Below, piece after piece: positions 8,205 through 18,239 of a DNA stretch of 40,198 bases (position 1 is the first letter of the stretch; each line of letters begins with the position of its first letter). The stretch spans positions 177,551 to 217,748 of the forward strand of contig CAZIMC010000002.1 in the NCBI GenBank assembly GCA_964540475.1, in the 5' to 3' direction. Source of the DNA: an uncultured Gammaproteobacteria bacterium. GTDB taxonomy: Bacteria > Patescibacteriota > Microgenomatia > UBA8517. A model generated the notes under the pieces. It did no database searches. It worked only from the letters and a program-made list of their open reading frames with translations, and was not told the DNA's origin. The position numbers and the translations under genes are program-made.

Positions 8205-9230
8205 TTAGAATTGATTTAAAAACCTAAGATCCGTACTGTATAAAAGCCTAAGATCAGGTATTTTAAGACCAGATTTCATCATCATTACTCTTTCAACTCC
8301 GATACCAAAAGCAAAACCAGAGTTTTTGGTGGGGTCGAATCCGCCATTTTTAAGTACAACCGGGTGAACCATGCCGGCTCCCCCAAGTTCCAGCCAACCT
8401 TCCTTGCAAACCTTACAACCTGTGCCACTACAAATATCACAGGTTATATCAACTTCAAATGATGGCTCTGTAAACTGAAAGTGATATGGGCGCAGTCTGG
8501 TTTTCCTTTCCTGCCCAAAAAATTGCCCAGCAAAGTGATCGATAACACCCTTTAAATGAACAATCGATATATTTTCATCAACAACCAAGCCTTCAAACTG
8601 ATGAAACATTTGAGTGTGGGAAGCATCCGATTGTCGCCTATAACACTTGGCGATATTCATCATCCTAATTGGAGGCCTACCAACCCTTTTCATTTCTCTT
8701 ACTTGACCTGATGAAGTGTGAGGTGTGAGGACCATTTTACCCAATTTTGGGTGTGGAGGAACGTCGACAAAAAAGGTCTCCCATTCGTCTCTTGCAGGAT
8801 GCCCTTTAGGCATATTGAGTGACTCAAAGGGGTACCAATCCCACTCAACTTCCGGATATCTAACCCTAACAAATCCTATTTTTTCAAAAACTGATGAAAT
8901 TTCTTGAATTGCAGTGGTTAATAAATGAAGATGACCTTGTGGTGGCTTAATGCCAGGAATTGTTGGGTCAAACCAGCTTCTAGCATTTTCCTGGAAGCTT
9001 AATTTTTTTGAAGCAATTTCAGAAAGAAGTGTGTTTTTTGCTTCGTTTAATGTAATTCCAACTCGTTTTTTTTCCTCGCTACCCAAACCTCTGATGTCTT
9101 TTATGAGCTTTGTAAACTTTCCGCTTTTACCAAGGTATGCAATCCTAATTCTTTCCAACTCTTCCTTATCCCCAGCCTCCATAATTTGCGCCAGGGCCTC
9201 ATTTTTTATATTGTTAACTTCTTCCTGCAT
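8205..9230 (-). CDS. pheS: phenylalanine--tRNA ligase alpha subunit
   Basis: HPARDEWETF, LTPHTS, FHQFEGL, RPYHFQFTEPSFE, GFAFGIGVER; start at ATG 9230. Confidence 0.97.
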   Translation of the reverse strand: MQEEVNNIKNEALAQIMEAGDKEELERIRIAYLGKSGKFTKLIKDIRGLGSEEKKRVGITLNEAKNTLLSEIASKKLSFQENARSWFDPTIPGIKPPQGHLHLLTTAIQEISSVFEKIGFVRVRYPEVEWDWYPFESLNMPKGHPARDEWETFFVDVPPHPKLGKMVLTPHTSSGQVREMKRVGRPPIRMMNIAKCYRRQSDASHTQMFHQFEGLVVDENISIVHLKGVIDHFAGQFFGQERKTRLRPYHFQFTEPSFEVDITCDICSGTGCKVCKEGWLELGGAGMVHPVVLKNGGFDPTKNSGFAFGIGVERVMMMKSGLKIPDLRLLYSTDLRFLNQF

Positions 9231-9239
9231 GTTTTGTAA

Positions 9240-9266
9240 CAAAAAAAGCTCTCTGGTGGAGAGCTT
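9240..9266 (-). terminator. attenuator terminator upstream of pheS
   Basis: Minus strand AAGCTCTC-CACCA-GAGAGCTT followed by a T run. Confidence 0.9.
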
Positions 9267-9294
9267 GCTTATAAATTAATATACCCCCACCAGC

Positions 9295-9339
9295 TTAATT
9301 GATTCTAAAGCAAAAGCCGCTGAAGGAAAAGGTTTTCAT
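9295..9339 (-). CDS. Phe-rich leader peptide of the pheST attenuator (pheM-like), MKTFSFSGFCFRIN
   Basis: 14 codons, 4 Phe; ATG overlaps the rplT stop (ATGA); followed by antiterminator strand CTGGTGGGGG and a terminator; same position as E. coli pheM. Confidence 0.85.
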   Translation of the reverse strand: MKTFSFSGFCFRIN

Positions 9340-9677
9340 TGCTTGGTTGACTCAACAATTTTTTTGAATGTTTCTTTATCGGTTGCTGCAATATCAGAGA
9401 GTATTTTCCTGTCAAGCTCGATATTGGCCCTTTTTAATGCGGCTATAAATTTGCTGTAGGAATAACCATTCTCGCGAACTGCGGCATTAAGACGCATTAT
9501 CCAGGTAGCCCTTAAATCTCTTTTTCTAAGCTTCCTTCCTGCATAGGCATATTGGCCTGCGTGCAAAACCGCCTCTTTGGCGGTTCTAATGCGTCTGCTT
9601 CTGGACTGCTTAAAGCCCTTAGCCTTTGCTAAGATTTTTCTATGTTTTCTTGCTGCTGGTGATTTTACTCTTGCCAT
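9336..9677 (-). CDS. rplT: 50S ribosomal protein L20
   Basis: MARVK..., AGQYAYAGRKLRKRDLRATWIMRLNAA, LDRKILSDIA. Confidence 0.98.
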   Translation of the reverse strand: MARVKSPAARKHRKILAKAKGFKQSRSRRIRTAKEAVLHAGQYAYAGRKLRKRDLRATWIMRLNAAVRENGYSYSKFIAALKRANIELDRKILSDIAATDKETFKKIVESTKQ

Positions 9678-9712
9678 AATATTTTACAAATCCTTCGACT
9701 CCTAATAGTCGC

Positions 9713-9913
9713 TCAGGACGGTCTTCCGACCAGCTTTCTAATCTTTTTAGCCATTGAACCCTTCATTCTGATCGTCTTTTTAAGGTTTGTTAAGCGTTTG
9801 GAACTTTTGCTTGCTTTTAAATGGCGCCTAAAGCCCTGCCTACGCATGACCTTACCAGTTTTGGTGATTTTAAATCTGTTTGAAATTGACTTTTTAGTTT
9901 TTTGTTTTGGCAT
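9713..9913 (-). CDS. rpmI: 50S ribosomal protein L35
   Basis: [22 protein letters not shown]; between infC and rplT. Confidence 0.97.
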
Positions 9914-9953
9914 ATATTAGTTACTTAAATTAAAGAGCAGAAGAGTGAAAGTA

Positions 9954-10535
9954 TCATTCGTTTTCTTTAGTTTCACTACCTCCGCTTGTCTGATCAGCGC
10001 GTTGGTCAGACTGAACTACCTTTTTATTCGTTGGCGATATGACCATCATTAAATGTTTGCCTAAAAACTTAGGCTCCATATCAACGACTATTGTTTCACC
10101 CAACTCTTCAACAATCCTTTTTAGTAAATTGTATCCAAATTGCTTGCTACCCATTTGTGGTCCCCGGAAAACGACCACAAGCCGAACCTTGTCTTTATCA
10201 CTTAAAAATTCTTTAACCCTGTTAAGTCGCGTATTATAGTCATTTTGGGCAATAAAGGGAGAAAACCTGACTTCTTTCAGTTCTCCACCCTTACTTTTAG
10301 AACTCTTCTTAAGCTTTTTTTCTTCCTGGTATCTAAATTTTCCGAAATCGACTATTTTTGCAACAGGTGGCTTAGCATTTGGGGCAATTTCGACAAGTGT
10401 TAAGCCTTCCTTTTGTGCCAGGTCTAGCGCCTCTTGGCGCTTAAGTATTCCCAGCTGTTTGCCATCGGCTCCTATAACCCGGAGCTCCGGTGCTTGTATT
10501 CTAAAATCGATTTTCCAGTAAAGATTGTTTCGCAA
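9954..10535 (-). CDS. infC: translation initiation factor IF-3
   Basis: IQAPELRVIG, LVEIAPNAKPPVAKIVDFGKFRY, KEVRFSP; TTG start; candidate promoter TTGTTT-17-TAAAAT upstream. Confidence 0.96.
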   Translation of the reverse strand: MRNNLYWKIDFRIQAPELRVIGADGKQLGILKRQEALDLAQKEGLTLVEIAPNAKPPVAKIVDFGKFRYQEEKKLKKSSKSKGGELKEVRFSPFIAQNDYNTRLNRVKEFLSDKDKVRLVVVFRGPQMGSKQFGYNLLKRIVEELGETIVVDMEPKFLGKHLMMVISPTNKKVVQSDQRADQTSGGSETKENE

Positions 10536-10582
10536 CTTATCAGTTTGATTTTACCACGTGCCTAGAGCTTAAACAAGATTGA

Positions 10583-12322
10583 TTAGAGTTCAAGGGATTT
10601 TTCGCTGATTTTTGCGACCATCCTCGCTTTGAAGTTTTCAAGTGAAATTTGTCCCAAGTCTTCACTGTTTCTTAATCTCACACTTAAACCATTACTTTCC
10701 ACTTCTTTGTCGCCAACAATTATCATATATGGGACCTTTTCCATCTGAGCATCGCGGATTTTGGCGCCAAGCGTTTCGCTTCGTGCGTCAACTTCTACTC
10801 TTATATTCTCTTTCATTAATTCGCTCACAACGGAGTTTGCATATTCCAAATTCTTCTCAGAGATAGGTAGAATTTTAGCCTGAACCGGAGCAAGCCAGAC
10901 AGGAAACGCCCCAGCAAAGTGCTCGGTTATTATACCAATAAAACGTTCTAAAGACCCGTAAACTACTCTATGTATTACTACCGGGGTTTTCTCAGATCCG
11001 TCTTCTGCAGCATATTTCAGTTTGAATCGCGCAGGAATCTGAAAGTCTAGCTGCAATGTCCCCATCTGCCAGTCGCGTCCAAGTGAATCTTTCATCAAGA
11101 TGTCAATTTTTGGACCGTAAAACGCGCCATCTCCTTCTAAAACAAAATACTCTTTACCTGATTTTTTTAGTATTTCTTTCAGTTCTTTTTCAGCCTTATC
11201 CCAAAGTTTGGGGTCTCCCATGAAATCTGATGGTCTTGTACCTAACCTGAAGCTGTATTTAAGACCAAAAATAGAATAAAATTTTTCAGTTATTTCAAAC
11301 AGTTGTTCAAACTCTGGTGCTATTTGTTCTTCGGTTACAAACAAATGCGCATCATCTTGCCGGAACTCCCGGATTCTTAACAATCCATTTAAAGTACCTG
11401 ATTTTTCGAATCGATGCAGTGTGTCTGTGTCGCCCAAACGAAGGGGCAGATCTCTATATGACCTGGTTTTAGAGTCGAACACTATCATTGCGTTAGGGCA
11501 ATTCATAGGCTTTAGTGCATAAGTTTCCCCCTCCTCCGTTTCGCTAATGAACATATTTTCTTTATAATGGTCCCAGTGCCCTGAAATTTCATATAATTCC
11601 TGTTTGTTTATTAATGGAGATACAATTTCCTGATAACCATATTGTTTATGCTCCTCACGCCAGAAACCAACCAGCTCGTTGTATAAAACAACTCCTTTTG
11701 GAAGCCAATATGCCATACCTGGCGCCGTATGATGAAAAATAAAGAGTTCTAATTCTTGTCCTAACCTTTTATGATTTCTTTTTTCTGCCTCCTCTTGCAT
11801 TTTAAGATAATGGTCTAGCTCTTCCTGCGTTGGGAAAACCGTTCCGTAGATTCTAGTGAGCATTTTATTTTTCTCGCTTCCCCGCCAGTAAGCTCCTGCA
11901 ATAGACAATAATTTAAAGTGTCTTAATTCTTCTGAGGGTTTTTCTACATGTCCACCACGGCATAAGTCCCAGTAATCACCTGATTTATAAAAAGTTAACG
12001 TTTGTCCATCGCCTGAAAATTCATCTATTAATTCATGCTTAAACTCATTATCAGGATATTCCTCTTTTGCTTTCGCGGAGTCAAGCTCGTGTCTTTCAAA
12101 GCTTTTCCAGGAAGGAAGAATTTTTTGCATTTCTTTTTCAATTTTGGAAAGATCATTGTCTGAAATTTTTATATCACCAAAATCAAAGTCAAAATAAAAG
12201 CCGTTTTCGATAGCAGGCCCAATTGTGCGCTTTGTATTAGGCCACAAATTCATAACAGCAGCTGCCAAAAGGTGTGCCGCCGAGTGTCTTAGGTTAACTA
12301 GATAATCTTTATCGTTTTTCAT
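10583..12322 (-). CDS. thrS: threonine--tRNA ligase (lacks N-terminal TGS domain)
   Basis: LRHSAAHLLA, DLCRGGHV, KPMNCP, LRIREFRQDDAH, GAFYGPKID, HRVVYGSLERF. Confidence 0.98.
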   Translation of the reverse strand: MKNDKDYLVNLRHSAAHLLAAAVMNLWPNTKRTIGPAIENGFYFDFDFGDIKISDNDLSKIEKEMQKILPSWKSFERHELDSAKAKEEYPDNEFKHELIDEFSGDGQTLTFYKSGDYWDLCRGGHVEKPSEELRHFKLLSIAGAYWRGSEKNKMLTRIYGTVFPTQEELDHYLKMQEEAEKRNHKRLGQELELFIFHHTAPGMAYWLPKGVVLYNELVGFWREEHKQYGYQEIVSPLINKQELYEISGHWDHYKENMFISETEEGETYALKPMNCPNAMIVFDSKTRSYRDLPLRLGDTDTLHRFEKSGTLNGLLRIREFRQDDAHLFVTEEQIAPEFEQLFEITEKFYSIFGLKYSFRLGTRPSDFMGDPKLWDKAEKELKEILKKSGKEYFVLEGDGAFYGPKIDILMKDSLGRDWQMGTLQLDFQIPARFKLKYAAEDGSEKTPVVIHRVVYGSLERFIGIITEHFAGAFPVWLAPVQAKILPISEKNLEYANSVVSELMKENIRVEVDARSETLGAKIRDAQMEKVPYMIIVGDKEVESNGLSVRLRNSEDLGQISLENFKARMVAKISEKSLEL

Positions 12323-12328
12323 CTTTGT

Positions 12329-12475
12329 TTAAATTTTTTTCACTCTTTTATTTAATGCTGCCATGACAGATTCCACTTTGCACTTAACTGCGGCTACATA
12401 TCTAGCGCTTTTGTTAGGATCTTTGACAAAATCCTTCGCCGCCTCTGTAACTGATAATTCTCGTTCTGTTTGCAT
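12329..12475 (-). CDS. 48-aa orphan protein between the T-box leader and thrS
   Basis: MQTERELSVTEAAKDFVKDPNKSARYVAAVKCKVESVMAALNKRVKKI; GGAG 6 nt before ATG; stop 6 nt before thrS. Confidence 0.6.
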   Translation of the reverse strand: MQTERELSVTEAAKDFVKDPNKSARYVAAVKCKVESVMAALNKRVKKI

Positions 12476-12488
12476 CTTATACTCCAAC

Positions 12489-12621
12489 AAAAAAGCGCCC
12501 GATACTTGTGGGAACCCGCTACGCGGATGGTTCCATCCCACTTTCTTGGACACTTGCTTCTCTATACTTCGCAATAGACGCGTACAACTAGTAGTTGGTG
12601 AATCTACGTCGTGGCTGCAAT
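12489..12621 (-). promoter_or_regulatory. compact T-box riboswitch-like leader of the thrS operon
   Basis: Antiterminator GTGGGA-[TGGAACC bulge]-ATCCGC-GTA-GCGGGT-TCCCAC (12508-12541) has T-box geometry; overlaps imperfect terminator AGCG..CCC/GGG-CGCT-TTTTTT. Confidence 0.8.
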
Positions 12622-12627
12622 TAATTT

Positions 12628-12657
12628 ATTATACGGCTGATTTTAATGCGTTGTCAA
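12628..12657 (-). promoter_or_regulatory. sigma70-type promoter for T-box/thrS
   Basis: TTGACA (12657-12652), 18 nt, TATAAT (12633-12628). Confidence 0.85.
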
Positions 12658-12660
12658 CAA

Positions 12661-12873
12661 CTACCTGACCAGCGGAGTGCGACGAGCAAGCTGAGCTTGG
12701 GTTGCTTCTACGATGTCTGCAATCCATCCTCCTACAACTGGTAAACCACCCAACGCGTTAAGGATCCAAACAATAATTGTAGACACGATAACAAATCCAA
12801 CAGTTACTCCCGCAGCCCAACCAATGCCATTTATAAAACCCTGCTTTATCGCCTTTACAGTTTCACTAGCCAT
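12661..12873 (-). CDS. small membrane protein (DUF5665-like)
   Basis: GFINGIGWAAGVTVGFVIV..LGGLPVVGGWIADIV; family assignment from memory, unverified. Confidence 0.7.
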   Translation of the reverse strand: MASETVKAIKQGFINGIGWAAGVTVGFVIVSTIIVWILNALGGLPVVGGWIADIVEATQAQLARRTPLVR

Positions 12874-12936
12874 ATATTTATATTACTTTTTGAAAACTTT
12901 AAAGTAAAGCAACTGAAGACTTAAAGGACAAAAAGG

Positions 12937-13009
12937 TGGACTCGAGGGGAGTCGAACCCCTAACCCCCTGACTGCCAGCCAGGTGCTCTAACCATTGAGC
13001 CACGAGCCC
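12937..13009 (-). tRNA. tRNA-Ala(GGC)
   Basis: Cloverleaf; anticodon arm cctgg-CTGGCAG-tcagg; T-loop GTTCGACTC. Confidence 0.95.
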
Positions 13010-13069
13010 ATGAATCAAATTATACCATCTTTAAGTTTACATATTAATTGCCGTATACTGGTTTATACA

Positions 13070-13837
13070 ATGAACATATTGGAAGTATTAATTCTTTCTG
13101 TTGTCGAAGGTTTGACAGAATTTCTTCCAATTTCCTCTACCGGGCATTTGATCCTTACTTCCAAGCTACTTGGCATTGCTCAAACCGAGTTTTTAAAAAC
13201 ATTTGAAATTTCAATTCAGCTTGGGGCGATATGCTCGGTAGTATTTTTATACTGGAAACGAGTTCTAGAAAATAAACAAATAATTGGCAAGATATTAGTA
13301 GCCTTCATACCCACTGCAATTGTTGGTCTTCTTTTTTACCCTCTTATAAAAAACGTGTTCTTTGTTAGCACGCAAATAGTTGTTTCTGCGCTTTTTATTG
13401 GCGGTATAATTTTGATACTTTTTGAAAAATTTGTTCCCCAAAATGCAGAAAGACATACATTAAAAGAAATTCCATACAAAAACTCAATTTTAATAGGTCT
13501 TATTCAATCCATTTCGATAATTCCAGGCGTATCACGAGCGGCAGCTACAATTATTGGTGGCATGACTGCAGGGCTCGACCGAAAGTCAGCAGTTGAGTTT
13601 TCATTTCTCTTGGCAGTTCCTACCATGTTTGCTGCTACCGCTCTTGACTTAGTAAGTACAGCCGGTAATTTTACTCCTAATCAGTATGGTAACCTGGTTG
13701 TTGGGTTTATTCTCTCGTTCTTCGTGGCACTTGCTACAATCAAGTTCTTCATTAACTACGTAGAAAAAAATAATTTTCTTATATTCGGTGTTTACAGAAT
13801 TATATTAGGATTTTTGTACTGGACATTTGTAGGCTAG
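13070..13837 (+). CDS. uppP: undecaprenyl-diphosphate phosphatase (BacA/UppP)
   Basis: VEGLTEFLPISSTGHL and SIIPGVSRAAAT motifs; polytopic; start at ATG 13070. Confidence 0.95.
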   Translation: MNILEVLILSVVEGLTEFLPISSTGHLILTSKLLGIAQTEFLKTFEISIQLGAICSVVFLYWKRVLENKQIIGKILVAFIPTAIVGLLFYPLIKNVFFVSTQIVVSALFIGGIILILFEKFVPQNAERHTLKEIPYKNSILIGLIQSISIIPGVSRAAATIIGGMTAGLDRKSAVEFSFLLAVPTMFAATALDLVSTAGNFTPNQYGNLVVGFILSFFVALATIKFFINYVEKNNFLIFGVYRIILGFLYWTFVG

Positions 13838-13907
13838 TAGCTAGAATTGATTTTTGTAATTGATTCCAGGCGTCAGTTTCTTGTAGCATTATAATAGCTT
13901 GGAAAGG

Positions 13908-14834
13908 ATGTTGGTTACTTATCACCCTGCCAGACCAGATCATGTTGATACGAAGTTTTCAACCGAAGCATTTTCCTCATTTTACGGCCAGGATCCTTTT
14001 GTGACTTATGATTCGGTAAGAAGCCTCTATTACCTTTTACAATCGGTAAATCATGATACTCAAATTGCTTTGTGGGCATCTATGAGCCTTAATAATTTAG
14101 GACAGGGTACTCCGGTAAACCTGTTTACCCCCACTCTAGAGAATGCCACTTGCTCGGTTTGGGCTCCTGAAATGCACCTTGTTAACGGTGAATGGTACTT
14201 TTATTATGCTGCATGCGATGGTAGGAATTTTAATCACCGAATGTATTGTGCCAGGATCTCGGATCCACTTTCTGAAGATTGGCACGAGTTAGGAAAGATT
14301 TGTGACCCCGATGATGACTGCTGGGGCATTGATCAGACAATCTTAAGACATGCAGGTAAGCTTTACACAATCTGGTCTGGTTGGGATGATCCAAGTGCCA
14401 CAGAAGACTTTTACCCCCAAAACCTATACATTGCCGAAATGATTAACCCCTGGACTGTAAAACCTGGAACCAAGGTTGTGATATCTAAGCCGGAGTATGA
14501 ATGGGAAGGAGTTAAAGACCACCCGATTAATGAAGGCCCGCAAGTTTTACTGAATAACGGTCACACACTAGTTGTTTATTCAGCAAATGCCAGTTGGAAA
14601 GCCCAGTATACTCAAGGACTCATAAAATTAATTGGCAAAGACCCGCTTAACCCTTCCCATTGGCAAAAATTACCAGATCCGATTTTTGGATTAAATGTTG
14701 GCCACCCGAGTTTTCTTGAAGACCTGGTCTTTTATCATTACAAAAGTTTGCCCAATGTACCCGGCTGGAAGGATCGTGTCGTTGCCTGTCGGGAATTCTC
14801 GTGGACAAACGAATTACCCGTATTTACCTCATAA
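13908..14834 (+). CDS. glycoside hydrolase family 43 (arabinofuranosidase/xylosidase-like)
   Basis: QDPFV (base), VWAPEMH, WGID, INEGPQ (acid); ATG 13908 with GGAAAGG upstream. Confidence 0.85.
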   Translation: MLVTYHPARPDHVDTKFSTEAFSSFYGQDPFVTYDSVRSLYYLLQSVNHDTQIALWASMSLNNLGQGTPVNLFTPTLENATCSVWAPEMHLVNGEWYFYYAACDGRNFNHRMYCARISDPLSEDWHELGKICDPDDDCWGIDQTILRHAGKLYTIWSGWDDPSATEDFYPQNLYIAEMINPWTVKPGTKVVISKPEYEWEGVKDHPINEGPQVLLNNGHTLVVYSANASWKAQYTQGLIKLIGKDPLNPSHWQKLPDPIFGLNVGHPSFLEDLVFYHYKSLPNVPGWKDRVVACREFSWTNELPVFTS

Positions 14835-14870
14835 ATTGCTTAAACACTTAGCTCATACTACAATTCTTGT

Positions 14871-15509
14871 ATGAAAGTTTATTTAGTCAGGCATGGTCAA
14901 TCAGAAGGCAACAAAAACAATTTTCACCAAACGGAGGATACACCTTTATCCAGCGAGGGAATAAGTCAGGCCAAGTTTGTTGCCAAGCGTCTACTTACAA
15001 TACCCTTTGACGTTATATATTCTTCCCCATATGTTCGTACTAAAAAAACGGCAGAAATAATAAGTAAAATTACCAAAAGAGAAATCGAATATTGGGATAG
15101 TTTGGTGGAAGTAAAACGACCTACTGAAATTGTTAACTTGATGTACGAGGATCCGGAAAGTATAAGGATAAGGAATATTATTCGAGAAAACTACCAAGAT
15201 CCTGATTGGAAATTTTCAGATGAAGAGAGCTTTAACGATTTAGTAACCAGAGCCCAAAAAATACTGGATCATCTTTTGCAGCACCACAAAGATCAGGACG
15301 TTGTATGTGTGACACATGGAGGATTGATAAAAATGCTTGCGTGCTTGGTAATATTAGGTGAGGATATAAATCCCCAGCTTTACCTTCGATTCCGTAATCA
15401 CACCTGGGAACAAAATACAGGAATAAATGTAATCGAATATACGGACAAATACGGCTGGGCATTAAACCACTGGAATGATATCGCCCACTTAGGAGATAGG
15501 TTTACTTAG
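14871..15509 (+). CDS. histidine phosphatase family protein
   Basis: YLVRHGQS, SSPYVRTKKTA, VTHGG. Confidence 0.92.
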   Translation: MKVYLVRHGQSEGNKNNFHQTEDTPLSSEGISQAKFVAKRLLTIPFDVIYSSPYVRTKKTAEIISKITKREIEYWDSLVEVKRPTEIVNLMYEDPESIRIRNIIRENYQDPDWKFSDEESFNDLVTRAQKILDHLLQHHKDQDVVCVTHGGLIKMLACLVILGEDINPQLYLRFRNHTWEQNTGINVIEYTDKYGWALNHWNDIAHLGDRFT

Positions 15510-15515
15510 ATTAGG

Positions 15516-15587
15516 TGGAGCCAGTAGGGATCGAACCTACGACCTTCTACACGTCAAGTAGACGCTCTACCACTGAGCCATGGCTCC
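15516..15587 (-). tRNA. tRNA-Val(GAC)
   Basis: Anticodon arm tctac-TTGACGT-gtaga. Confidence 0.95.
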
Positions 15588-15640
15588 GCCTGGACAGATA
15601 AATTATACTTGATCGCTCAAGTTTTTTCCAACCTCTATAT

Positions 15641-15838
15641 TTATTTTTCAGTAGACGGTGGATCTTCTAAAACACCCTCAATTGCGCTATTTAGATCAAT
15701 TCTGTGCGCCTCTAACACTTCCTGATCAGTAAGTCCAGCAACATTTATGCCTTTTCTGTCCAAGGCCAATGCAGCTCTGACAACATCTGCTCTACCCTTC
15801 CAGGGCGATCCGCCGTTACAAGATGATTCTATACTCAT
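15641..15838 (-). CDS. 65-aa orphan protein downstream of the Phe-type attenuator
   Basis: Strong SD AAAGGAGGTGA before ATG; acidic C-terminus; no motif recognised. Confidence 0.75.
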   Translation of the reverse strand: MSIESSCNGGSPWKGRADVVRAALALDRKGINVAGLTDQEVLEAHRIDLNSAIEGVLEDPPSTEK

Positions 15839-15865
15839 AAATTAAACTCACCTCCTTTCACCAAC

Positions 15866-15889
15866 AAAAAACCCCGATTTTATCGGGGT
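15866..15889 (-). terminator. attenuator terminator
   Basis: ACCCCGAT-AAA-ATCGGGGT followed by TTTTT. Confidence 0.9.
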
Positions 15890-15934
15890 ATGTTGCTAAA
15901 ATTAATTTTTTATAAACGCAACTTTACCCCCTGT

Positions 15935-15982
15935 TTAGGAGGTAAAGTAAAATCCAAAAAGGATATTGTTAGTTGCGTTCAT
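15935..15982 (-). CDS. Phe-rich leader peptide MNATNNILFGFYFTS, apparently leaderless
   Basis: 15 codons; F-G-F-Y-F cluster; ATG 7 nt after the -10 box; part of a four-segment attenuator. Confidence 0.8.
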   Translation of the reverse strand: MNATNNILFGFYFTS

Positions 15983-15989
15983 TTTACCT

Positions 15990-16018
15990 ATTTTATTTTT
16001 ATTATATTAGCTTGTCAA
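15990..16018 (-). promoter_or_regulatory. sigma70-type promoter
   Basis: TTGACA (16018-16013), 17 nt, TAAAAT (15995-15990). Confidence 0.8.
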
Positions 16019-16200
16019 TCCACCGATTGAGGAGTGGTTTCAGTTCTAACAAACGGCTTATGATCGGTAGCGTTCCAGCTAACATTCTTATGACCAAGCA
16101 TTCTGGCTAATTCCGAACCGATTTTAACTTTATCGCTACTAGTAGCCCGTTTTGCTTTTTGTTCAGCCGTGGCTTTCCCGTTTTCAAATTTTCTATCCAT
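16015..16200 (-). CDS. 61-aa basic orphan protein
   Basis: GGGGTGA SD before ATG 16200; directly follows the Zn-ribbon ORF. Confidence 0.65.
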   Translation of the reverse strand: MDRKFENGKATAEQKAKRATSSDKVKIGSELARMLGHKNVSWNATDHKPFVRTETTPQSVD

Positions 16201-16205
16201 AATTA

Positions 16206-16427
16206 TCACCCCATTCTCTCGATTCCAGCTAGTGAATAATTGCGTCCTGGATTCCTAATTTCACCTTCAGCACCAACAGACCAACCACATCCGTTACAAT
16301 GTGTTTCTAGCACATATGTTTCACCATGATTTCCTTTAAAGGAAATTTCATATGCCGAGCTGTTATTTATTCCCTGACTTTCGCAATTAGGACAAGCTCC
16401 TACTTTTTTTGCTTTACTTCCTGCCAT
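16206..16427 (-). CDS. 73-aa putative zinc-ribbon protein
   Basis: CPNC ... HCNGCG (two CxxC pairs); first gene after the Ile-type attenuator. Confidence 0.7.
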   Translation of the reverse strand: MAGSKAKKVGACPNCESQGINNSSAYEISFKGNHGETYVLETHCNGCGWSVGAEGEIRNPGRNYSLAGIERMG

Positions 16428-16446
16428 ATTTTTGTTTTATAAAACT

Positions 16447-16472
16447 AAAAAAACCTCTCTGGTGAGAGGTTT
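16447..16472 (-). terminator. attenuator terminator
   Basis: AAACCTCTC-ACCA-GAGAGGTTT followed by TTTT. Confidence 0.9.
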
Positions 16473-16511
16473 AGAATTGTTTATTTGATTAAATTGGTTA
16501 TTCTCTCACCA

Positions 16512-16571
16512 TTAAGCGCTAACCCCAATAAAGAGGTTAATGCTAATAATGAGTGAAAGATTTCTTATCAT
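16512..16571 (-). CDS. Ile-rich leader peptide MIRNLSLIISINLFIGVSA, apparently leaderless
   Basis: 19 codons, 5 Ile + 3 Leu + 1 Val; ATG 6 nt after the -10 box; followed by antiterminator strand TGGTGAGAG. Confidence 0.8.
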   Translation of the reverse strand: MIRNLSLIISINLFIGVSA

Positions 16572-16577
16572 ATATAT

Positions 16578-16607
16578 ATTTTAGTTTCTAGCAGTTGTTT
16601 TTGTCAA
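16578..16607 (-). promoter_or_regulatory. sigma70-type promoter
   Basis: TTGACA (16607-16602), 18 nt, TAAAAT (16583-16578). Confidence 0.8.
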
Positions 16608-16620
16608 GCTGAAAGACTAA

Positions 16621-17256
16621 TTATCCAGCAGAGCGTTGGAGATAGTGATCCGGGGCAAGAAGGAAAGAGCTTCCCTTTTTCTTGTACATTGACCAGTAAT
16701 TTTTCTTTTGCGCGCGTTTGTTGGTTGCGTGAAGCCAGACTGCTGCGCTATCAATTTTCTTTCTAAAATCCTTCAAAAATTCCAATAGCTTTTCAAAGAA
16801 TATAACATGGTAGATTCCCGGATTAACTGGAGCCTGCATTGTTGCAACTTTAAGCTCATCGGAGATATTTTGAGTAGTTTTTGCTAGACTCATGACCTCC
16901 TGGGTCAAAGCCTGTAGCTGTACACGTAGCTCGTTAGCCTTTTTTTCTACAAGGACTTTTTCCTCCCGTGCAAGGTTCCTTTCAAGAGAGATTTGCGCTT
17001 TTAATTTTTTGTTTTCTTCAAGCTTGCCAGAAAAAACTTCACCCATTTCAATGGATTCACCCGGGGTGATTTCACCTGAATATTTTTTGCTGATTCTGGG
17101 TCCAAATAACTGATCGAAAAATTCCTGCGAGGTGTCTTGCAGCAGATCCTTTTTCATAGTTTTTACGCCAGTATTTCCTATATCCTTTAGAGCTTCCAGG
17201 ACACTTGCCTGCCTTCGTTGTTTTTGGCCTTTTGGTTTTTGATTTTTAGGATCCAT
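16621..17256 (-). CDS. conserved hypothetical coiled-coil protein (DUF5660-like)
   Basis: 211 aa, central coiled coil, PVNPGIYHVIFFEKL; family name from memory, unverified. Confidence 0.75.
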   Translation of the reverse strand: MDPKNQKPKGQKQRRQASVLEALKDIGNTGVKTMKKDLLQDTSQEFFDQLFGPRISKKYSGEITPGESIEMGEVFSGKLEENKKLKAQISLERNLAREEKVLVEKKANELRVQLQALTQEVMSLAKTTQNISDELKVATMQAPVNPGIYHVIFFEKLLEFLKDFRKKIDSAAVWLHATNKRAQKKNYWSMYKKKGSSFLLAPDHYLQRSAG

Positions 17257-18167: not shown

Positions 18168-18239
18168 AAATTAAAAATCCACGTGTATCCGTGGTAATAG
18201 TATTATACCAGAAAGTTGGCAAATCCGATAATCGGACAA

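What the first reader, a model, noticed from the sequence alone, without database searches (positions are those of the whole stretch)
15641..16607. Tandem amino-acid-sensing attenuator cassettes controlling only small orphan proteins
Seen in sequence: two back-to-back units on the minus strand, each built as consensus sigma70 promoter, ATG 6-7 nt after the -10 box (leaderless), 15-19 aa peptide enriched in one amino acid (Ile; Phe), mutually exclusive protector/antiterminator/terminator hairpins, then small unknown ORFs (73-aa Zn ribbon plus 61-aa basic protein; 65-aa protein). Established: such attenuators normally control amino-acid biosynthesis or aminoacyl-tRNA synthetase genes. Inference: no such gene follows here, so this may be an undescribed amino-acid-starvation regulon of small proteins in a host-dependent CPR organism that senses charged-tRNA levels. 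The same window uses both a T-box (thrS) and a leader peptide (pheST), so the mechanisms are in use in this genome.
Basis: partly seen in the sequence, partly recalled or inferred. Interest (0 to 1): 0.9.

Follow-up and report, generated by a model that had tools for sequence, protein, structure and literature searches.

The report
Tandem leader-peptide attenuators before small proteins
Two back-to-back amino-acid-sensing transcription switches of the classical leader-peptide type, part of a large undescribed family in Woesebacteria (CPR), here control only small proteins of unknown function, pointing to an uncharted starvation response in these host-dependent bacteria.

Summary
Both units (minus strand, 16607-16447 and 16018-15866) have a near-consensus promoter, an ATG 6-7 nt after the -10 box, a 19- or 15-codon ORF inside a strong hairpin (z -7.3, -7.7) and an intrinsic terminator.

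Unit 1 belongs to a family of more than 50 elements in Woesebacteria. In all of them the short ORF is kept open, although the conserved RNA motifs fall in all three reading frames. Leader composition matches known downstream genes: Phe-rich before pheST (in this window), DAHP synthase and an aminotransferase; Ile-rich before ileS; Ile/Val/Leu-rich before an IlvE-like gene.

A model built from nine Phe-type leaders elsewhere finds unit 2 at E=1.5e-9. Ribosome-masking folds place unit 2's antitermination window on codons F-G-F-Y-F.

Corrections:
- The 65-aa "orphan" belongs to a conserved, nearly Phe-free small-protein family. It follows a Phe leader in 6 of 8 contexts, in at least two of them between the leader and pheS.
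- The Zn-ribbon protein recurs behind the same leader.
- Unit 1 looks branched-chain (Ile/Leu/Val) rather than Ile-only.
- The claimed thrS T-box is not supported.

No expression data exist. The mechanism is classical; the lineage and the targets are new.

The parts
16578..16607 (-). Unit 1 promoter: -35 TTGACA (16607-16602), 18-nt spacer, -10 TAAAAT (16583-16578)
   Evidence: 11/12 matches. A -10-like hexamer ends 6-13 nt before the sORF ATG in nearly all family members. The transcription start is inferred, not mapped.
16512..16571 (-). Unit 1 leader ORF MIRNLSLIISINLFIGVSA*. No Shine-Dalgarno; the ATG lies 6 nt after the -10 box, so it is probably leaderless. 5 Ile, 3 Leu, 1 Val of the 18 residues after Met.
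   Evidence: The ATG sits at the same model position in 50/52 family members. The frame is open for at least 14 codons in 51/51, against 14/51 and 19/51 in the other frames.
16542..16560 (-). Unit 1 region 1 (TCTTTCACTCATTATTAGC), the 5' arm of the protector helix, inside the sORF (codons 4-10)
   Evidence: MFE fold. Region 1:2 duplex across the family is -11.9 kcal/mol against -8.0 in shuffles.
16519..16540 (-). Unit 1 inner hairpin (TTAACCTC-TTTATT-GGGGTTAG)
   Evidence: Seven of its 8 pairs show changes on both sides across 41 sequences.
16501..16518 (-). Unit 1 region 2 (core GGTGAGAGA at 16510-16502). It pairs either with region 1 or with region 3 (antiterminator).
   Evidence: RNAalifold picks the 2:3 pairing. 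Duplex 2:3 is -14.0 kcal/mol against -4.9+/-2.0 in shuffles.
16447..16472 (-). Unit 1 intrinsic terminator. Region 3 includes CTCTCACC (16468-16461); region 4 is GAGAGGTTT (16459-16451); T7 run at 16453-16447.
16206..16427 (-). 73-aa CxxC...CxxC (Zn-ribbon-like) protein, first gene of cassette 1
   Evidence: Pfam gives only sub-threshold zinc-ribbon hits. One database homolog, P0002 (56% identity), lies directly behind the same leader. A third homolog in L079 is the second gene of the same leader's cassette. AF2 pLDDT is 85.6 for the best model, but the other four score 41-64, and there is no PDB match.
16015..16200 (-). 61-aa basic protein (64 aa from the GTG at 16209), second gene of cassette 1; SD GGGGTGA
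   Evidence: No homolog in 5.8 billion proteins and no Pfam hit.
15990..16018 (-). Unit 2 promoter: TTGACA (16018-16013, overlapping the stop codon of the 61-aa ORF), 17-nt spacer, TAAAAT (15995-15990)
   Evidence: 11/12 matches. The same layout is present in L079.
15935..15982 (-). Unit 2 leader ORF MNATNNILFGFYFTS*, with control codons F9-G-F-Y-F13
   Evidence: Orthologs and homologs: MNAIKIFFGFYFTS (L079), MKSDEVVFFGFFFTPMI (L064), MTTQKAYFAFFFTS (L083) and others.
15912..15946 (-). Unit 2 region 1 (TTTACCTCCT, 15946-15937) and region 2 (AGGGGGTAAAG, 15932-15922). The next stretch, AGTTGCGTTTAT (15923-15912), overlaps the end of region 2 and pairs with the start of the sORF (15982-15971).
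   Evidence: MFE -45.2 kcal/mol. Duplex 1:2 is -11.4 and 2:3 is -11.2 kcal/mol, against -4.6+/-2.1 in shuffles.
15866..15890 (-). Unit 2 intrinsic terminator ACCCCGAT-AAA-ATCGGGGT plus T-run. Its 5' arm (TACCCC) is region 3.
   Evidence: L084 has an identical terminator. L079 has a different one (ACCTCCG/CGGAGGT) whose 5' arm is still complementary to region 2.
15641..15838 (-). 65-aa protein, a member of the 'SPWK' small-protein family (C-x-G-G-S-P-W-K...EVxRAxLxL.R.G..VAGLS..EVL). Strong SD AGGAGGTGA; no Phe, no Tyr.
   Evidence: It follows a Phe-type leader in 6/8 contexts, and in L078 and L080/81 lies between the leader and pheS. AF2 predicts two helices, pLDDT 73.
15514..15587 (-). tRNA-Val(GAC) with its own promoter (TATAAT 15607-15602). 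It is the conserved 3' boundary of the variable region.
9241..9350 (-). pheS leader of the same family: sORF MKTFSFSGFCFRIN* overlapping the rplT stop, region 2 GCTGGTGGGGG, terminator AGCTCTCCACCAGAGAGCT plus T7, then pheS-pheT
   Evidence: R1 model 41.6 bits, E=1e-6. pheS/pheT confirmed by Pfam. Masking folds.

Best explanation
Both units are ribosome-mediated (leader-peptide) transcription attenuators of the trp/pheA/pheST/ilv kind.

Proposed mechanism:
- Each is transcribed from its own sigma-70-type promoter.
- The transcript starts at or 1 nt before the AUG of a short ORF. A ribosome therefore loads without a Shine-Dalgarno as soon as the 5' end emerges.
- If the ribosome runs to the stop codon, it masks region 2 and the terminator (3:4) forms. 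If the ORF is not translated, region 1 pairs with region 2 and the terminator also forms. Either way transcription stops before the downstream genes.
- If the ribosome stalls on hungry codons inside or just before region 1, region 2 is free when region 3 is made. The 2:3 antiterminator then forms and RNA polymerase reads through.

What each unit senses:
- Unit 2 senses Phe (and Tyr) through codons F9-G-F-Y-F13. It controls a 65-aa member of a conserved, almost Phe-free small-protein family that elsewhere sits between a Phe leader and pheS.
- Unit 1 senses branched-chain amino acids (Ile and Leu, some Val) over a broad window, codons about 3-16. It controls a Zn-ribbon protein and a 61-aa protein.

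Shown here: the sequence elements, the predicted folds, conservation of the ORF and of the pairings, and the match between leader codons and known target genes.
Inferred: the transcription start, translation of the sORFs, the response to amino-acid limitation, and what the small proteins do.
For: 1. Anatomy and folding stability.

2. Unit 1 is one of more than 50 related elements.
- They come from the metagenome pattern scan, model R1 and loci next to DUF5660.
- In about 42 of 44 unique elements from the pattern set, a same-strand ORF starts 0-40 nt after the terminator.

3. The sORF is under selection as an ORF.
- The ATG is at the same model position in 50/52 elements.
- The frame is open for at least 14 codons in 51/51, against 27-37% in the other frames and 36% in shuffles.
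- The conserved GTGRGAG motif falls in all three frames relative to the ATG.
- A -10 box ends 6-13 nt upstream, with no SD.

4. Leader codons match known downstream genes.
- Phe-rich leaders precede pheST (window 9241-9350), DAHP synthase (L027) and a class I/II aminotransferase (L046).
- An Ile-rich leader precedes ileS (L023; TIGR00392, 655 bits).
- An Ile/Val/Leu-rich leader precedes a class IV aminotransferase (L028).

5. Unit 2 membership.
- Model R2, built from nine Phe-type leaders and no window sequence, scores unit 2 at 65.5 bits (E=1.5e-9).
- Unit 1 (E=4.6e-4) and the pheS leader (E=0.014) are the only other hits below E=1.

6. Three-way complementarity co-varies among Phe-type leaders: CCTCC/GGAGG, CCCCG/CGGGG and CCTCCC/GGGAGG.

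7. Ribosome-masking folds of the transcript truncated before region 4.
- Unit 2's antiterminator forms only with the A site at codons 9-13.
- Unit 1's forms for stalls at codons about 3-16 and is lost at codon 18 to the stop.
- Without a ribosome the protector helix wins.

8. The whole tandem is conserved in L079, with the same families and 47-60% protein identity for the 65-aa homolog. The same design occurs in L064 and L083.

9. Sub-threshold Rfam hits are only to leader families: Trp_leader E=0.028, Phe_leader, His_leader.
Against: - There are no transcript, TSS or ribosome data. Only three DNA metagenome runs hold the sequence.
- At equilibrium on the full-length unit 2 RNA, the terminator always wins (P=0.96). 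Read-through therefore needs kinetic trapping of a 6-bp antiterminator, which is the weakest in the family.
- In the full-length equilibrium model of unit 1, stalls exactly at Ile codons 8, 9 and 11 still favour the terminator.
- Unit 1's orthologous leaders change from Ile-rich to Leu-rich (L077: 6 Leu, 1 Ile). Specificity is therefore not sharply defined.
- 'Type B' relatives upstream of M20 peptidases have no obvious repeated control codon.
- The targets in this window have no known link to amino-acid supply.
- The pattern used to collect unit 1 relatives fixed regions 2-4, so their invariance is partly ascertainment.
Confidence: 0.8

Rival explanations
1. The leaders, especially unit 1, report general translation speed or ribosome stalling of any cause (global starvation, ribosome-targeting antibiotics, low tRNA charging in general). 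This would resemble the ribosome-mediated attenuators of bmrCD or vmlR, not an amino-acid-specific sensor.
For: - Unit 1's antitermination window spans codons about 3-16.
- Orthologous leaders differ in which hydrophobic residue dominates.
- Type B leaders before M20 peptidases lack runs of one codon.
- Downstream genes are not biosynthetic.
Against: - Across the family, leader composition tracks the target gene: Phe with pheST, DAHP synthase and an aminotransferase; Ile with ileS; Ile/Val/Leu with IlvE.
- Unit 2's window coincides exactly with F-G-F-Y-F.
- Ile+Leu+Val stays at 44-50% in all three orthologs of unit 1.
Confidence: 0.12
2. The units are independent small-RNA genes (promoter, stable hairpin, terminator) acting in trans, and the short ORFs are incidental.
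For: - Each unit has a strong promoter and terminator about 120-130 nt apart.
- The folds are very stable.
- An A/U-rich linker precedes the terminator.
Against: - The ORF is conserved in 51/51 members while the peptide and frame vary.
- A same-strand gene nearly always starts just after the terminator.
- Codon composition matches the downstream gene.
- Region 2 is complementary to both region 1 and region 3.
Confidence: 0.04
3. The short ORFs encode functional hydrophobic micro-peptides (type I toxin-like or membrane peptides) and the hairpins only control their translation.
For: Type A peptides are hydrophobic and 16-19 aa long, e.g. MRNLSLIISFFLFIEG.
Against: - The peptide sequence is not conserved, and the conserved RNA motifs are read in all three frames.
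- Phe-type and type B peptides are not membrane-like.
- No antisense partner was seen, though none was searched for specifically.
Confidence: 0.02
4. Chance juxtaposition: the terminators simply end the upstream genes, the promoters serve the downstream genes, and the short ORFs are noise.
For: Promoter-like and terminator-like motifs are not strongly enriched over shuffles in the 12-kb neighbourhood.
Against: - Fold z-scores are -7.3 and -7.7.
- Covariance-model E-values are 1e-9 to 1e-21.
- The whole architecture is conserved in many genomes.
Confidence: 0.01

Closest known systems
Escherichia coli pheST attenuator (pheM leader) and pheA attenuator (pheL leader)
   Same: - A short Phe-rich leader ORF ends in or before region 1.
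- Regions 1:2, 2:3 and 3:4 pair alternatively, and an intrinsic terminator precedes the regulated gene.
- In this window the pheS leader sits between rplT and pheS, as in E. coli (my knowledge of the E. coli operon; window data).
- pheL diversity is described in PMC3082878.
   Different: - No sequence-level membership: Rfam Phe_leader scores 27 bits against a gathering score of 55.
- Unit 2 has its own promoter with the AUG at the predicted transcript start.
- It controls a 65-aa protein, not a synthetase or a biosynthetic enzyme.
- In relatives, that small gene is wedged between the leader and pheS.
ilvGMEDA / ilvBN multivalent leaders of enterobacteria, and the actinobacterial attenuator candidates before ilvB, leuS and trpS (PMC1262725)
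   Same: - The leader ORF is rich in several branched-chain residues and is followed by a terminator.
- Attenuators before aminoacyl-tRNA synthetase genes are known: leuS and trpS in Streptomyces (PMC1262725). Here, ileS in L023 and pheST in the window.
   Different: - Unit 1's leader is much shorter (19 codons).
- It has no runs of one codon.
- Its targets are small proteins of unknown function.
- The lineage is CPR.
Leaderless polycysteine short ORFs of mycobacteria ('Cys ribulon', bioRxiv 10.1101/834739)
   Same: - Sensory short ORFs start at the 5' end of the transcript.
- Many independent copies give a genome-wide, ribosome-mediated response to one amino acid.
   Different: [quoted passage not shown] Here an intrinsic terminator and a 2:3 antiterminator are present (transcription level).
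- Leaderless initiation here is inferred only from promoter spacing.
T-box riboswitches (the usual control of aminoacyl-tRNA synthetase genes in Firmicutes)
   Same: Same physiological logic: both sense tRNA charging and control synthetase and amino-acid supply genes by antitermination.
   Different: - There is no tRNA-binding Stem I or T-box sequence.
- Rfam finds no T-box anywhere in the window at its gathering score, and none at E<=10 in 9000-17000, which covers both units, pheS and the thrS upstream region.

Membership tests
Ribosome-mediated (leader-peptide) transcription attenuator | A short ORF upstream of the regulated gene, enriched in codons of the sensed amino acid | tested here: met
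   - Unit 2: F, F, Y, F within codons 9-13 of 15.
- Unit 1: 5 Ile, 3 Leu, 1 Val among the 18 residues after Met, against Ile+Leu+Val of about 25% in the window's proteins.
- Pooled family enrichment: Ile 1.74x, Phe 1.87x.
Ribosome-mediated (leader-peptide) transcription attenuator | A Rho-independent terminator between the short ORF and the structural gene | tested here: met
   The downstream start codon lies 20-30 nt after the T-run.
Ribosome-mediated (leader-peptide) transcription attenuator | Mutually exclusive 1:2, 2:3 and 3:4 pairings, with region 1 inside the ORF | tested here: met
   - Predicted folds and duplex energies.
- Masking simulations.
- Co-variation of the pairings among homologs.
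- All of this is computational.
Ribosome-mediated (leader-peptide) transcription attenuator | The ORF (start, frame, stop position) is conserved in relatives while the peptide sequence is free to vary | tested here: met
   - 51/51 members are open for at least 14 codons.
- The ATG is at a fixed model position in 50/52.
- The stop falls between -8 and +26 nt of region 2 (pattern-collected set).
- Region 2 lies in all three frames.
Ribosome-mediated (leader-peptide) transcription attenuator | The control codons correspond to the function of the regulated genes | tested here: inconclusive
   - Met for family members with known targets: pheST, DAHP synthase, aminotransferases, ileS.
- For the two units themselves the targets have no known function.
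- Indirect link: the 65-aa family is embedded in pheST operons and is nearly Phe-free.
Ribosome-mediated (leader-peptide) transcription attenuator | Read-through rises on limitation of the cognate amino acid or charged tRNA and depends on translation of the leader | not testable with these tools
   No RNA runs contain the locus, and the organism is uncultured.
Rfam Phe_leader (RF01859), Trp_leader (RF00513), His_leader (RF00514) | A score at or above the family's gathering threshold | tested here: not met
   - Unit 2: Trp_leader 27.3 bits (gathering score 41); Phe_leader 27.0 bits (55).
- Unit 1: His_leader 26.7 bits (49); Phe_leader 23.8 bits (55).
- Source. The units are not members of these curated families, though they have the same architecture.
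   - No hit at the gathering score.
- No hit at E<=10 on 8 kb or on 401 nt.
- The fold z-score of that leader is only -1.7.
Leaderless sensory short ORFs ('ribulon' type) | The transcript begins with the start codon of the sensory ORF | not testable with these tools
   There is only promoter geometry. The -10 box ends 6 nt (unit 1) and 7 nt (unit 2) before the ATG. The family range is 6-13 nt, with 7 the most common, and no SD.
Type I toxin or trans-acting small RNA | A conserved peptide sequence or an antisense partner, and no obligatory downstream gene | tested here: not met
   - The peptide is not conserved and the frames shift.
- A downstream same-strand gene is present in about 42/44 elements.

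The most novel reading that the evidence does not exclude
Woesebacteria (CPR) may use one expandable family of probably leaderless leader-peptide attenuators as their main regulatory device for amino-acid supply.
- Copies are re-coded for Phe, for Ile/Leu/Val, or for aromatic/Trp codons.
- They are scattered before synthetase genes, a dipeptidase-like M20 enzyme and a fast-evolving set of small proteins. Most of these lie in a hypervariable island between tig-DUF5660 and tRNA-Val.
- The small proteins (the SPWK family, the Zn-ribbon family and others) would be dedicated starvation effectors, built to be poor in the very amino acid whose shortage induces them.
- Some, such as SPWK next to pheS and the 78-aa ORF next to ileS, would act on the cognate synthetase or on translation.

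This would be a ribosome-driven regulon ('ribulon') that tells an episymbiont which amino acid its host is failing to supply.
Probability: 0.35. Interest if true: 0.8.

Novelty: new variant of a known kind. Interest (0 to 1): 0.66.

Why it matters
- CPR/Patescibacteria are thought to have few regulators and to depend on hosts for amino acids, and how they sense supply is unknown. I found no paper in the held library that links leader-peptide attenuation to this group.
- This analysis points to a large, recognisable RNA family with two working covariance models. The family could be used to read out the amino-acid-responsive gene set of each genome directly from sequence.
- It assigns a regulatory context to many 'hypothetical' small proteins.
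- It suggests that synthetase genes in this lineage use leader peptides rather than T-boxes.
- It nominates the SPWK family as a Phe-limitation protein linked to PheRS.
- The elements are short and self-contained, so they can be tested in cell-free coupled systems without culturing the organism.

Tried and rejected
- **Rfam at gathering thresholds:** only tRNAs. The PyrR-site resemblance of CCAGAGAGG in the unit 1 terminator loop was dropped, because the loop is not conserved in relatives.
- **tblastn of the three small proteins against 20 syntenic Woesebacteria loci:** nothing.
- **Word-indexed protein search:** one homolog for the Zn-ribbon protein and none for the 61-aa and 65-aa proteins. 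Only the exhaustive phmmer search revealed the 65-aa family.
- **61-aa protein vs the second gene of L076:** no similarity.
- **Zn-ribbon family vs the 87-93 aa Cys/His family found behind other leaders:** hhalign probability 3.9%, so unrelated.
- **Structure searches of both AF2 models against PDB:** no match with E<0.5. PDB profile search with the SPWK alignment found nothing.
- **RNA-seq evidence:** no RNA runs, only three wastewater DNA runs.
- **Column-wise pair counting on MAFFT alignments:** weak for the outer 1:2 helix (53% of cells paired) because of indels. I used per-sequence duplex energies instead.
- **Equilibrium folding of full-length leaders with a masked ribosome:** did not reproduce antitermination for unit 2. 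The truncated-transcript version did.
- **Idea that read-through regulates tRNA-Val:** set aside, because the tRNA has its own strong promoter, which is also present in L001 where no leader precedes the tRNA.
Full report
**1. What is in the sequence**

Read on the minus strand, the region follows trigger factor (18167-17283) and a DUF5660 protein (17256-16621). It then holds two units of the same design.

Unit 1:
- TTGACA, 18-nt spacer, TAAAAT (16607-16578; 11 of 12 consensus positions).
- An ATG 6 nt after the -10 box.
- A 19-codon ORF, MIRNLSLIISINLFIGVSA.
- An intrinsic terminator at 16472-16447.
- A 73-aa CxxC...CxxC protein and a 61-aa basic protein.

Unit 2:
- TTGACA, 17-nt spacer, TAAAAT (16018-15990; 11 of 12).
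- An ATG 7 nt after the -10 box.
- A 15-codon ORF, MNATNNILFGFYFTS.
- A terminator at 15889-15866.
- A 65-aa protein with a strong Shine-Dalgarno, then tRNA-Val(GAC).

Both leader transcripts fold far better than dinucleotide shuffles: -41.0 and -45.2 kcal/mol, z -7.3 and -7.7. In each, a long 5' hairpin encloses the short ORF and is followed by the terminator. Strong intrinsic terminators are rare in this window. My scan found about six in 40 kb, and three of them sit behind short ORFs: these two units and the rplT-pheS spacer.

**2. Unit 1 belongs to a large family**

- Anchoring on DUF5660 gave 20 syntenic loci, nearly all labelled Woesebacteria or Patescibacteria. Five of them carry a recognisable copy of unit 1.
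- A pattern built from the conserved blocks found 55 metagenome loci.
- A covariance model built from 41 unique copies (R1) found 73 hits in the 77 loci held, including copies the pattern had missed.
- In about 42 of 44 unique elements from the pattern set, a same-strand ORF starts 0-40 nt after the T-run. The element is therefore a 5' leader and not a free-standing gene.
- The inner hairpin co-varies, with changes on both sides in 7 of 8 pairs.
- The region 1 motif (TCTCAC-like) was not part of my search pattern, yet it is complementary to region 2 well beyond shuffles: -11.9 against -8.0 kcal/mol.
- Regions 2-4 were fixed by the search pattern, so their invariance in that set is partly ascertainment.

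**3. The short ORF is conserved as an ORF**

- In 50 of 52 model hits, an ATG sits at exactly the same model position.
- That frame is open for at least 14 codons in 51 of 51. The other two frames reach this in 14 and 19 of 51, and shuffled sequence in 36% of trials.
- In the pattern-collected set, the stop codon always falls from 8 nt before to 26 nt after the start of region 2. That is where a terminating ribosome would mask region 2.
- The conserved RNA motifs lie in all three reading frames relative to the ATG. TCTCAC, for example, is read as Ser-His, as (Phe)-Leu-Thr or as Ser-Leu. The peptide is therefore not what is conserved.
- A -10-like hexamer ends 6-13 nt before the ATG (7 nt is the most common), and there is no Shine-Dalgarno. 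This argues for leaderless or nearly leaderless initiation. It is an inference from geometry only.

**4. Leader composition matches the known downstream genes**

| Leader | Locus | Downstream gene |
|---|---|---|
| MKTFSFSGFCFRIN | window 9241-9350 | pheS-pheT (R1: 41.6 bits, E=1e-6) |
| MKQFFFYFFGFYFAPQ... | L027 | DAHP synthase |
| MQSTRAYFAFFFTS | L046 | class I/II aminotransferase |
| MKCISFTQIISLIIRA | L023 | a 75-78 aa ORF (start codon uncertain), then isoleucyl-tRNA synthetase (TIGR00392, 655 bits, above cut-off) |
| MKSISLIQIVNLIVNGA | L028 | class IV (IlvE-type) aminotransferase |

A third leader type has one Trp and several Tyr/Phe/His, for example MKLKSHITYMYPHFWRSF. It precedes an M20 peptidase in eight loci. 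This correspondence is the strongest argument that the family works as classical attenuators.

**5. Unit 2 and its target**

- R1 scores unit 2 only marginally (19.4 bits, E=0.1).
- Phe-type leaders with the same layout exist in L064/L065, L046, L016, L078, L080, L083, L084, L086 and L079.
- A second model, built from nine of them and from no window sequence (R2), scores unit 2 at 65.5 bits, E=1.5e-9. Unit 1 (E=4.6e-4) and the pheS leader (E=0.014) are the only other hits below E=1 in the window.
- Among these leaders, regions 1 and 3 are near-copies of each other, as are regions 2 and 4. The set co-varies between CCTCC/GGAGG, CCCCG/CGGGG and CCTCCC/GGGAGG.
- The ortholog in L079 has a different terminator (ACCTCCG/CGGAGGT, against ACCCCGAT/ATCGGGGT here). 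Its 5' arm is still complementary to region 2 (GGGGGTA).

The 65-aa protein looked like an orphan in the word-indexed search. An exhaustive phmmer search found ten small proteins of 61-96 aa sharing a 45-residue core, C-x-G-G-S-P-W-K...EVTRAxLxL.R.G.xVAGLSxxEVL. I call this the SPWK family.

Contexts of the SPWK gene:
- In L078 and L080/81 it lies between a Phe leader and pheS, in thrS-infC-rplT-[leader]-SPWK-pheS-pheT.
- In L086 it lies behind a Phe leader downstream of thrS-infC-rplT and a 124-aa ORF. The contig ends after the SPWK gene, so whether pheS follows is not known.
- In L083, in L079 and in this window it lies behind a Phe leader in the region after DUF5660 or the M20 peptidase.
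- In L084 and L082 it lies behind other leader types.

It is thus directly behind a Phe-type leader in 6 of 8 contexts. The family has 3 Phe in 839 residues and none in the conserved core (read), against 5.1% Phe in the window's proteins. The AF2 model shows two helices (pLDDT 73) and has no informative structural match.

**6. Unit 1 and its targets**

- The Zn-ribbon protein has one database homolog, P0002, at 56% identity. A third copy is in L079.
- All three copies sit in cassettes behind orthologous leaders. P0002, like the window copy, directly follows the leader. In L079 a 56/77-aa ORF comes first.
- The three leader peptides are MIRNLSLIISINLFIGVSA, MFGNLTLNLITLVLFEGLK and MFRNLTLTIISLVLVEGQN.
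- Ile falls from 5 to 1-2 while Leu rises from 3 to 4-6. Ile+Leu+Val stays at 8-9 of 18. I therefore read unit 1 as a multivalent branched-chain leader, not an Ile-only one.
- The 61-aa protein has no homolog at all. The second gene of this cassette differs between genomes.
- L079 reproduces the whole tandem: unit 1, two small genes including the Zn-ribbon protein, unit 2, SPWK, tRNA-Val. L064 and L083 have the same two leader types in the opposite order, each before a small ORF. The tandem design is therefore a conserved theme.

**7. Mechanism by simulation**

I masked the RNA from the 5' end to 9-15 nt beyond the A-site codon. I then folded the transcript as it exists just before the 3' arm of the terminator is made.

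- Unit 2: region 3 is sequestered (0.54-0.63) only when the A site is at codons 9-13, F-G-F-Y-F. It is sequestered at no more than 0.35 at earlier codons, and about 0.09 at the last codons and the stop. This is because the start of the ORF pairs with the stretch after region 2 and locks the protector helix.
- Unit 1: stalls anywhere from codon about 3 to 16 free region 2. A ribosome at codon 18 to the stop masks it. Without a ribosome the protector helix dominates.
- pheS leader: it behaves like a textbook case even at equilibrium.

Caveats:
- On the full-length unit 2 RNA at equilibrium, the terminator always wins (0.96). Read-through therefore needs kinetic trapping of a 6-bp antiterminator.
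- For unit 1, the equilibrium model does not favour antitermination exactly at Ile codons 8, 9 and 11.

**8. What is not supported**

- Rfam finds no T-box upstream of thrS, even at E<=10 on a 401-nt query. That leader's fold is not unusual, with z -1.7.
- Neither unit reaches the gathering score of any Rfam leader family. The best sub-threshold hits are Trp_leader, Phe_leader and His_leader.
- No RNA sequencing run holds this locus. Transcription starts, termination and regulation are all inferred.

**9. Comparison with known systems, and verdict**

The mechanism is the classical leader-peptide attenuator:
- The E. coli pheST, pheA and ilv leaders (my knowledge).
- Actinobacterial candidates before ilvB, leuS and trpS (PMC1262725).
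- pheL diversity (PMC3082878).

Leaderless sensory short ORFs that form a ribosome-directed regulon are known from mycobacteria. There they act on translation (bioRxiv 10.1101/834739).

What appears new:
- The lineage. I found no paper linking leader-peptide attenuation with CPR/Patescibacteria in the held library.
- One re-codable family that serves synthetase genes, an M20 peptidase and many small proteins.
- Small ORFs wedged between the leader and the synthetase gene.
- Cassettes that control nothing but small proteins.

I also saw, on small numbers, that small proteins behind Phe-type leaders are poor in aromatic residues (about 1%) but not in Ile+Leu+Val. Those behind branched-chain-type leaders are poor in Ile+Leu+Val (15% against about 24%) but not in aromatics. 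This fits proteins made during shortage of that amino acid.

I rate the finding a real and interesting new variant of a known mechanism. Confidence is 0.8 that both units are amino-acid-responsive attenuators, higher for unit 2 (Phe) than for unit 1 (branched-chain).

Noticed in passing
window 9241-9350 (-): The rplT-pheS spacer holds a Phe leader (MKTFSFSGFCFRIN, start overlapping the rplT stop) with an antiterminator and a terminator. It is a member of the same RNA family as unit 1 (R1: 41.6 bits, E=1e-6).
   Followed up: yes
window 12475-12657 (-): A perfect-consensus promoter (12/12) is followed by a ~150-nt leader and a 48-aa ORF before thrS. Rfam finds no T-box even at E<=10, and the fold z-score is only -1.7. 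What regulates thrS here is unexplained.
   Followed up: partly
window 15514-17256 (-), compared with L001-L020, L064, L076-L086: The stretch between tig-DUF5660 and tRNA-Val(GAC) / tRNA-Ala(GGC) is hypervariable across Woesebacteria. It holds anything from nothing to three attenuator cassettes, an M20 peptidase and assorted small ORFs. In L084 it also holds a HEPN/nucleotidyltransferase pair and AbiEii.
   Followed up: partly
L004, L007, L024, L030, L053, L070, L074, L082: A leader subtype with one or more Trp plus several Tyr/Phe/His and no codon runs (e.g. MKLKSHITYMYPHFWRSF) always precedes an M20-family peptidase. This suggests peptide hydrolysis is switched on by amino-acid shortage. Which residue is sensed is unclear.
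   Followed up: partly
L023:8270-11579 (also L021, L043, L044, L050); L078 and L080:2370-3900: A small ORF is wedged between the leader and the synthetase gene in two independent cases: Ile leader, a 75-78 aa ORF, ileS; and Phe leader, SPWK protein, pheS-pheT.
   Followed up: partly
L024:1648-1804, L040:5600-5756, L070:7877-8033, L030:988-1131, L057:3733-3886: A second leader placed after the M20 peptidase gene precedes an 87-93 aa Cys/His-rich protein. In four of the five loci this is followed by a BipA/TypA-like GTPase; in L030 the downstream gene was not seen. hhalign finds no relation between this small protein and the window's Zn-ribbon protein.
   Followed up: partly
window, whole 40 kb: Strong intrinsic terminators are scarce, about six in 40 kb. 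Half of them are the three leader attenuators, so this genome seems to use them mainly for regulation.
   Followed up: partly
window 15641-15838, 16015-16427; L064, L065 and other loci: Small proteins behind Phe-type leaders contain almost no Phe/Tyr/Trp (0-1.5%) but near-normal Ile+Leu+Val. Those behind branched-chain-type leaders have low Ile+Leu+Val (mean 15% against about 24%) but normal aromatics. The numbers are small.
   Followed up: partly
L076:775-2631: In the closest syntenic relative of cassette 1, a RelA/SpoT-family (HD_4, weak RelA_SpoT) gene follows tRNA-Val. It is absent from the window at that position.
   Followed up: no
window 18179-18194 (-): A short hairpin plus T-run lies about 10 nt upstream of the trigger-factor start codon. 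Its role, as terminator of an upstream transcript or as a leader element, was not examined.
   Followed up: no
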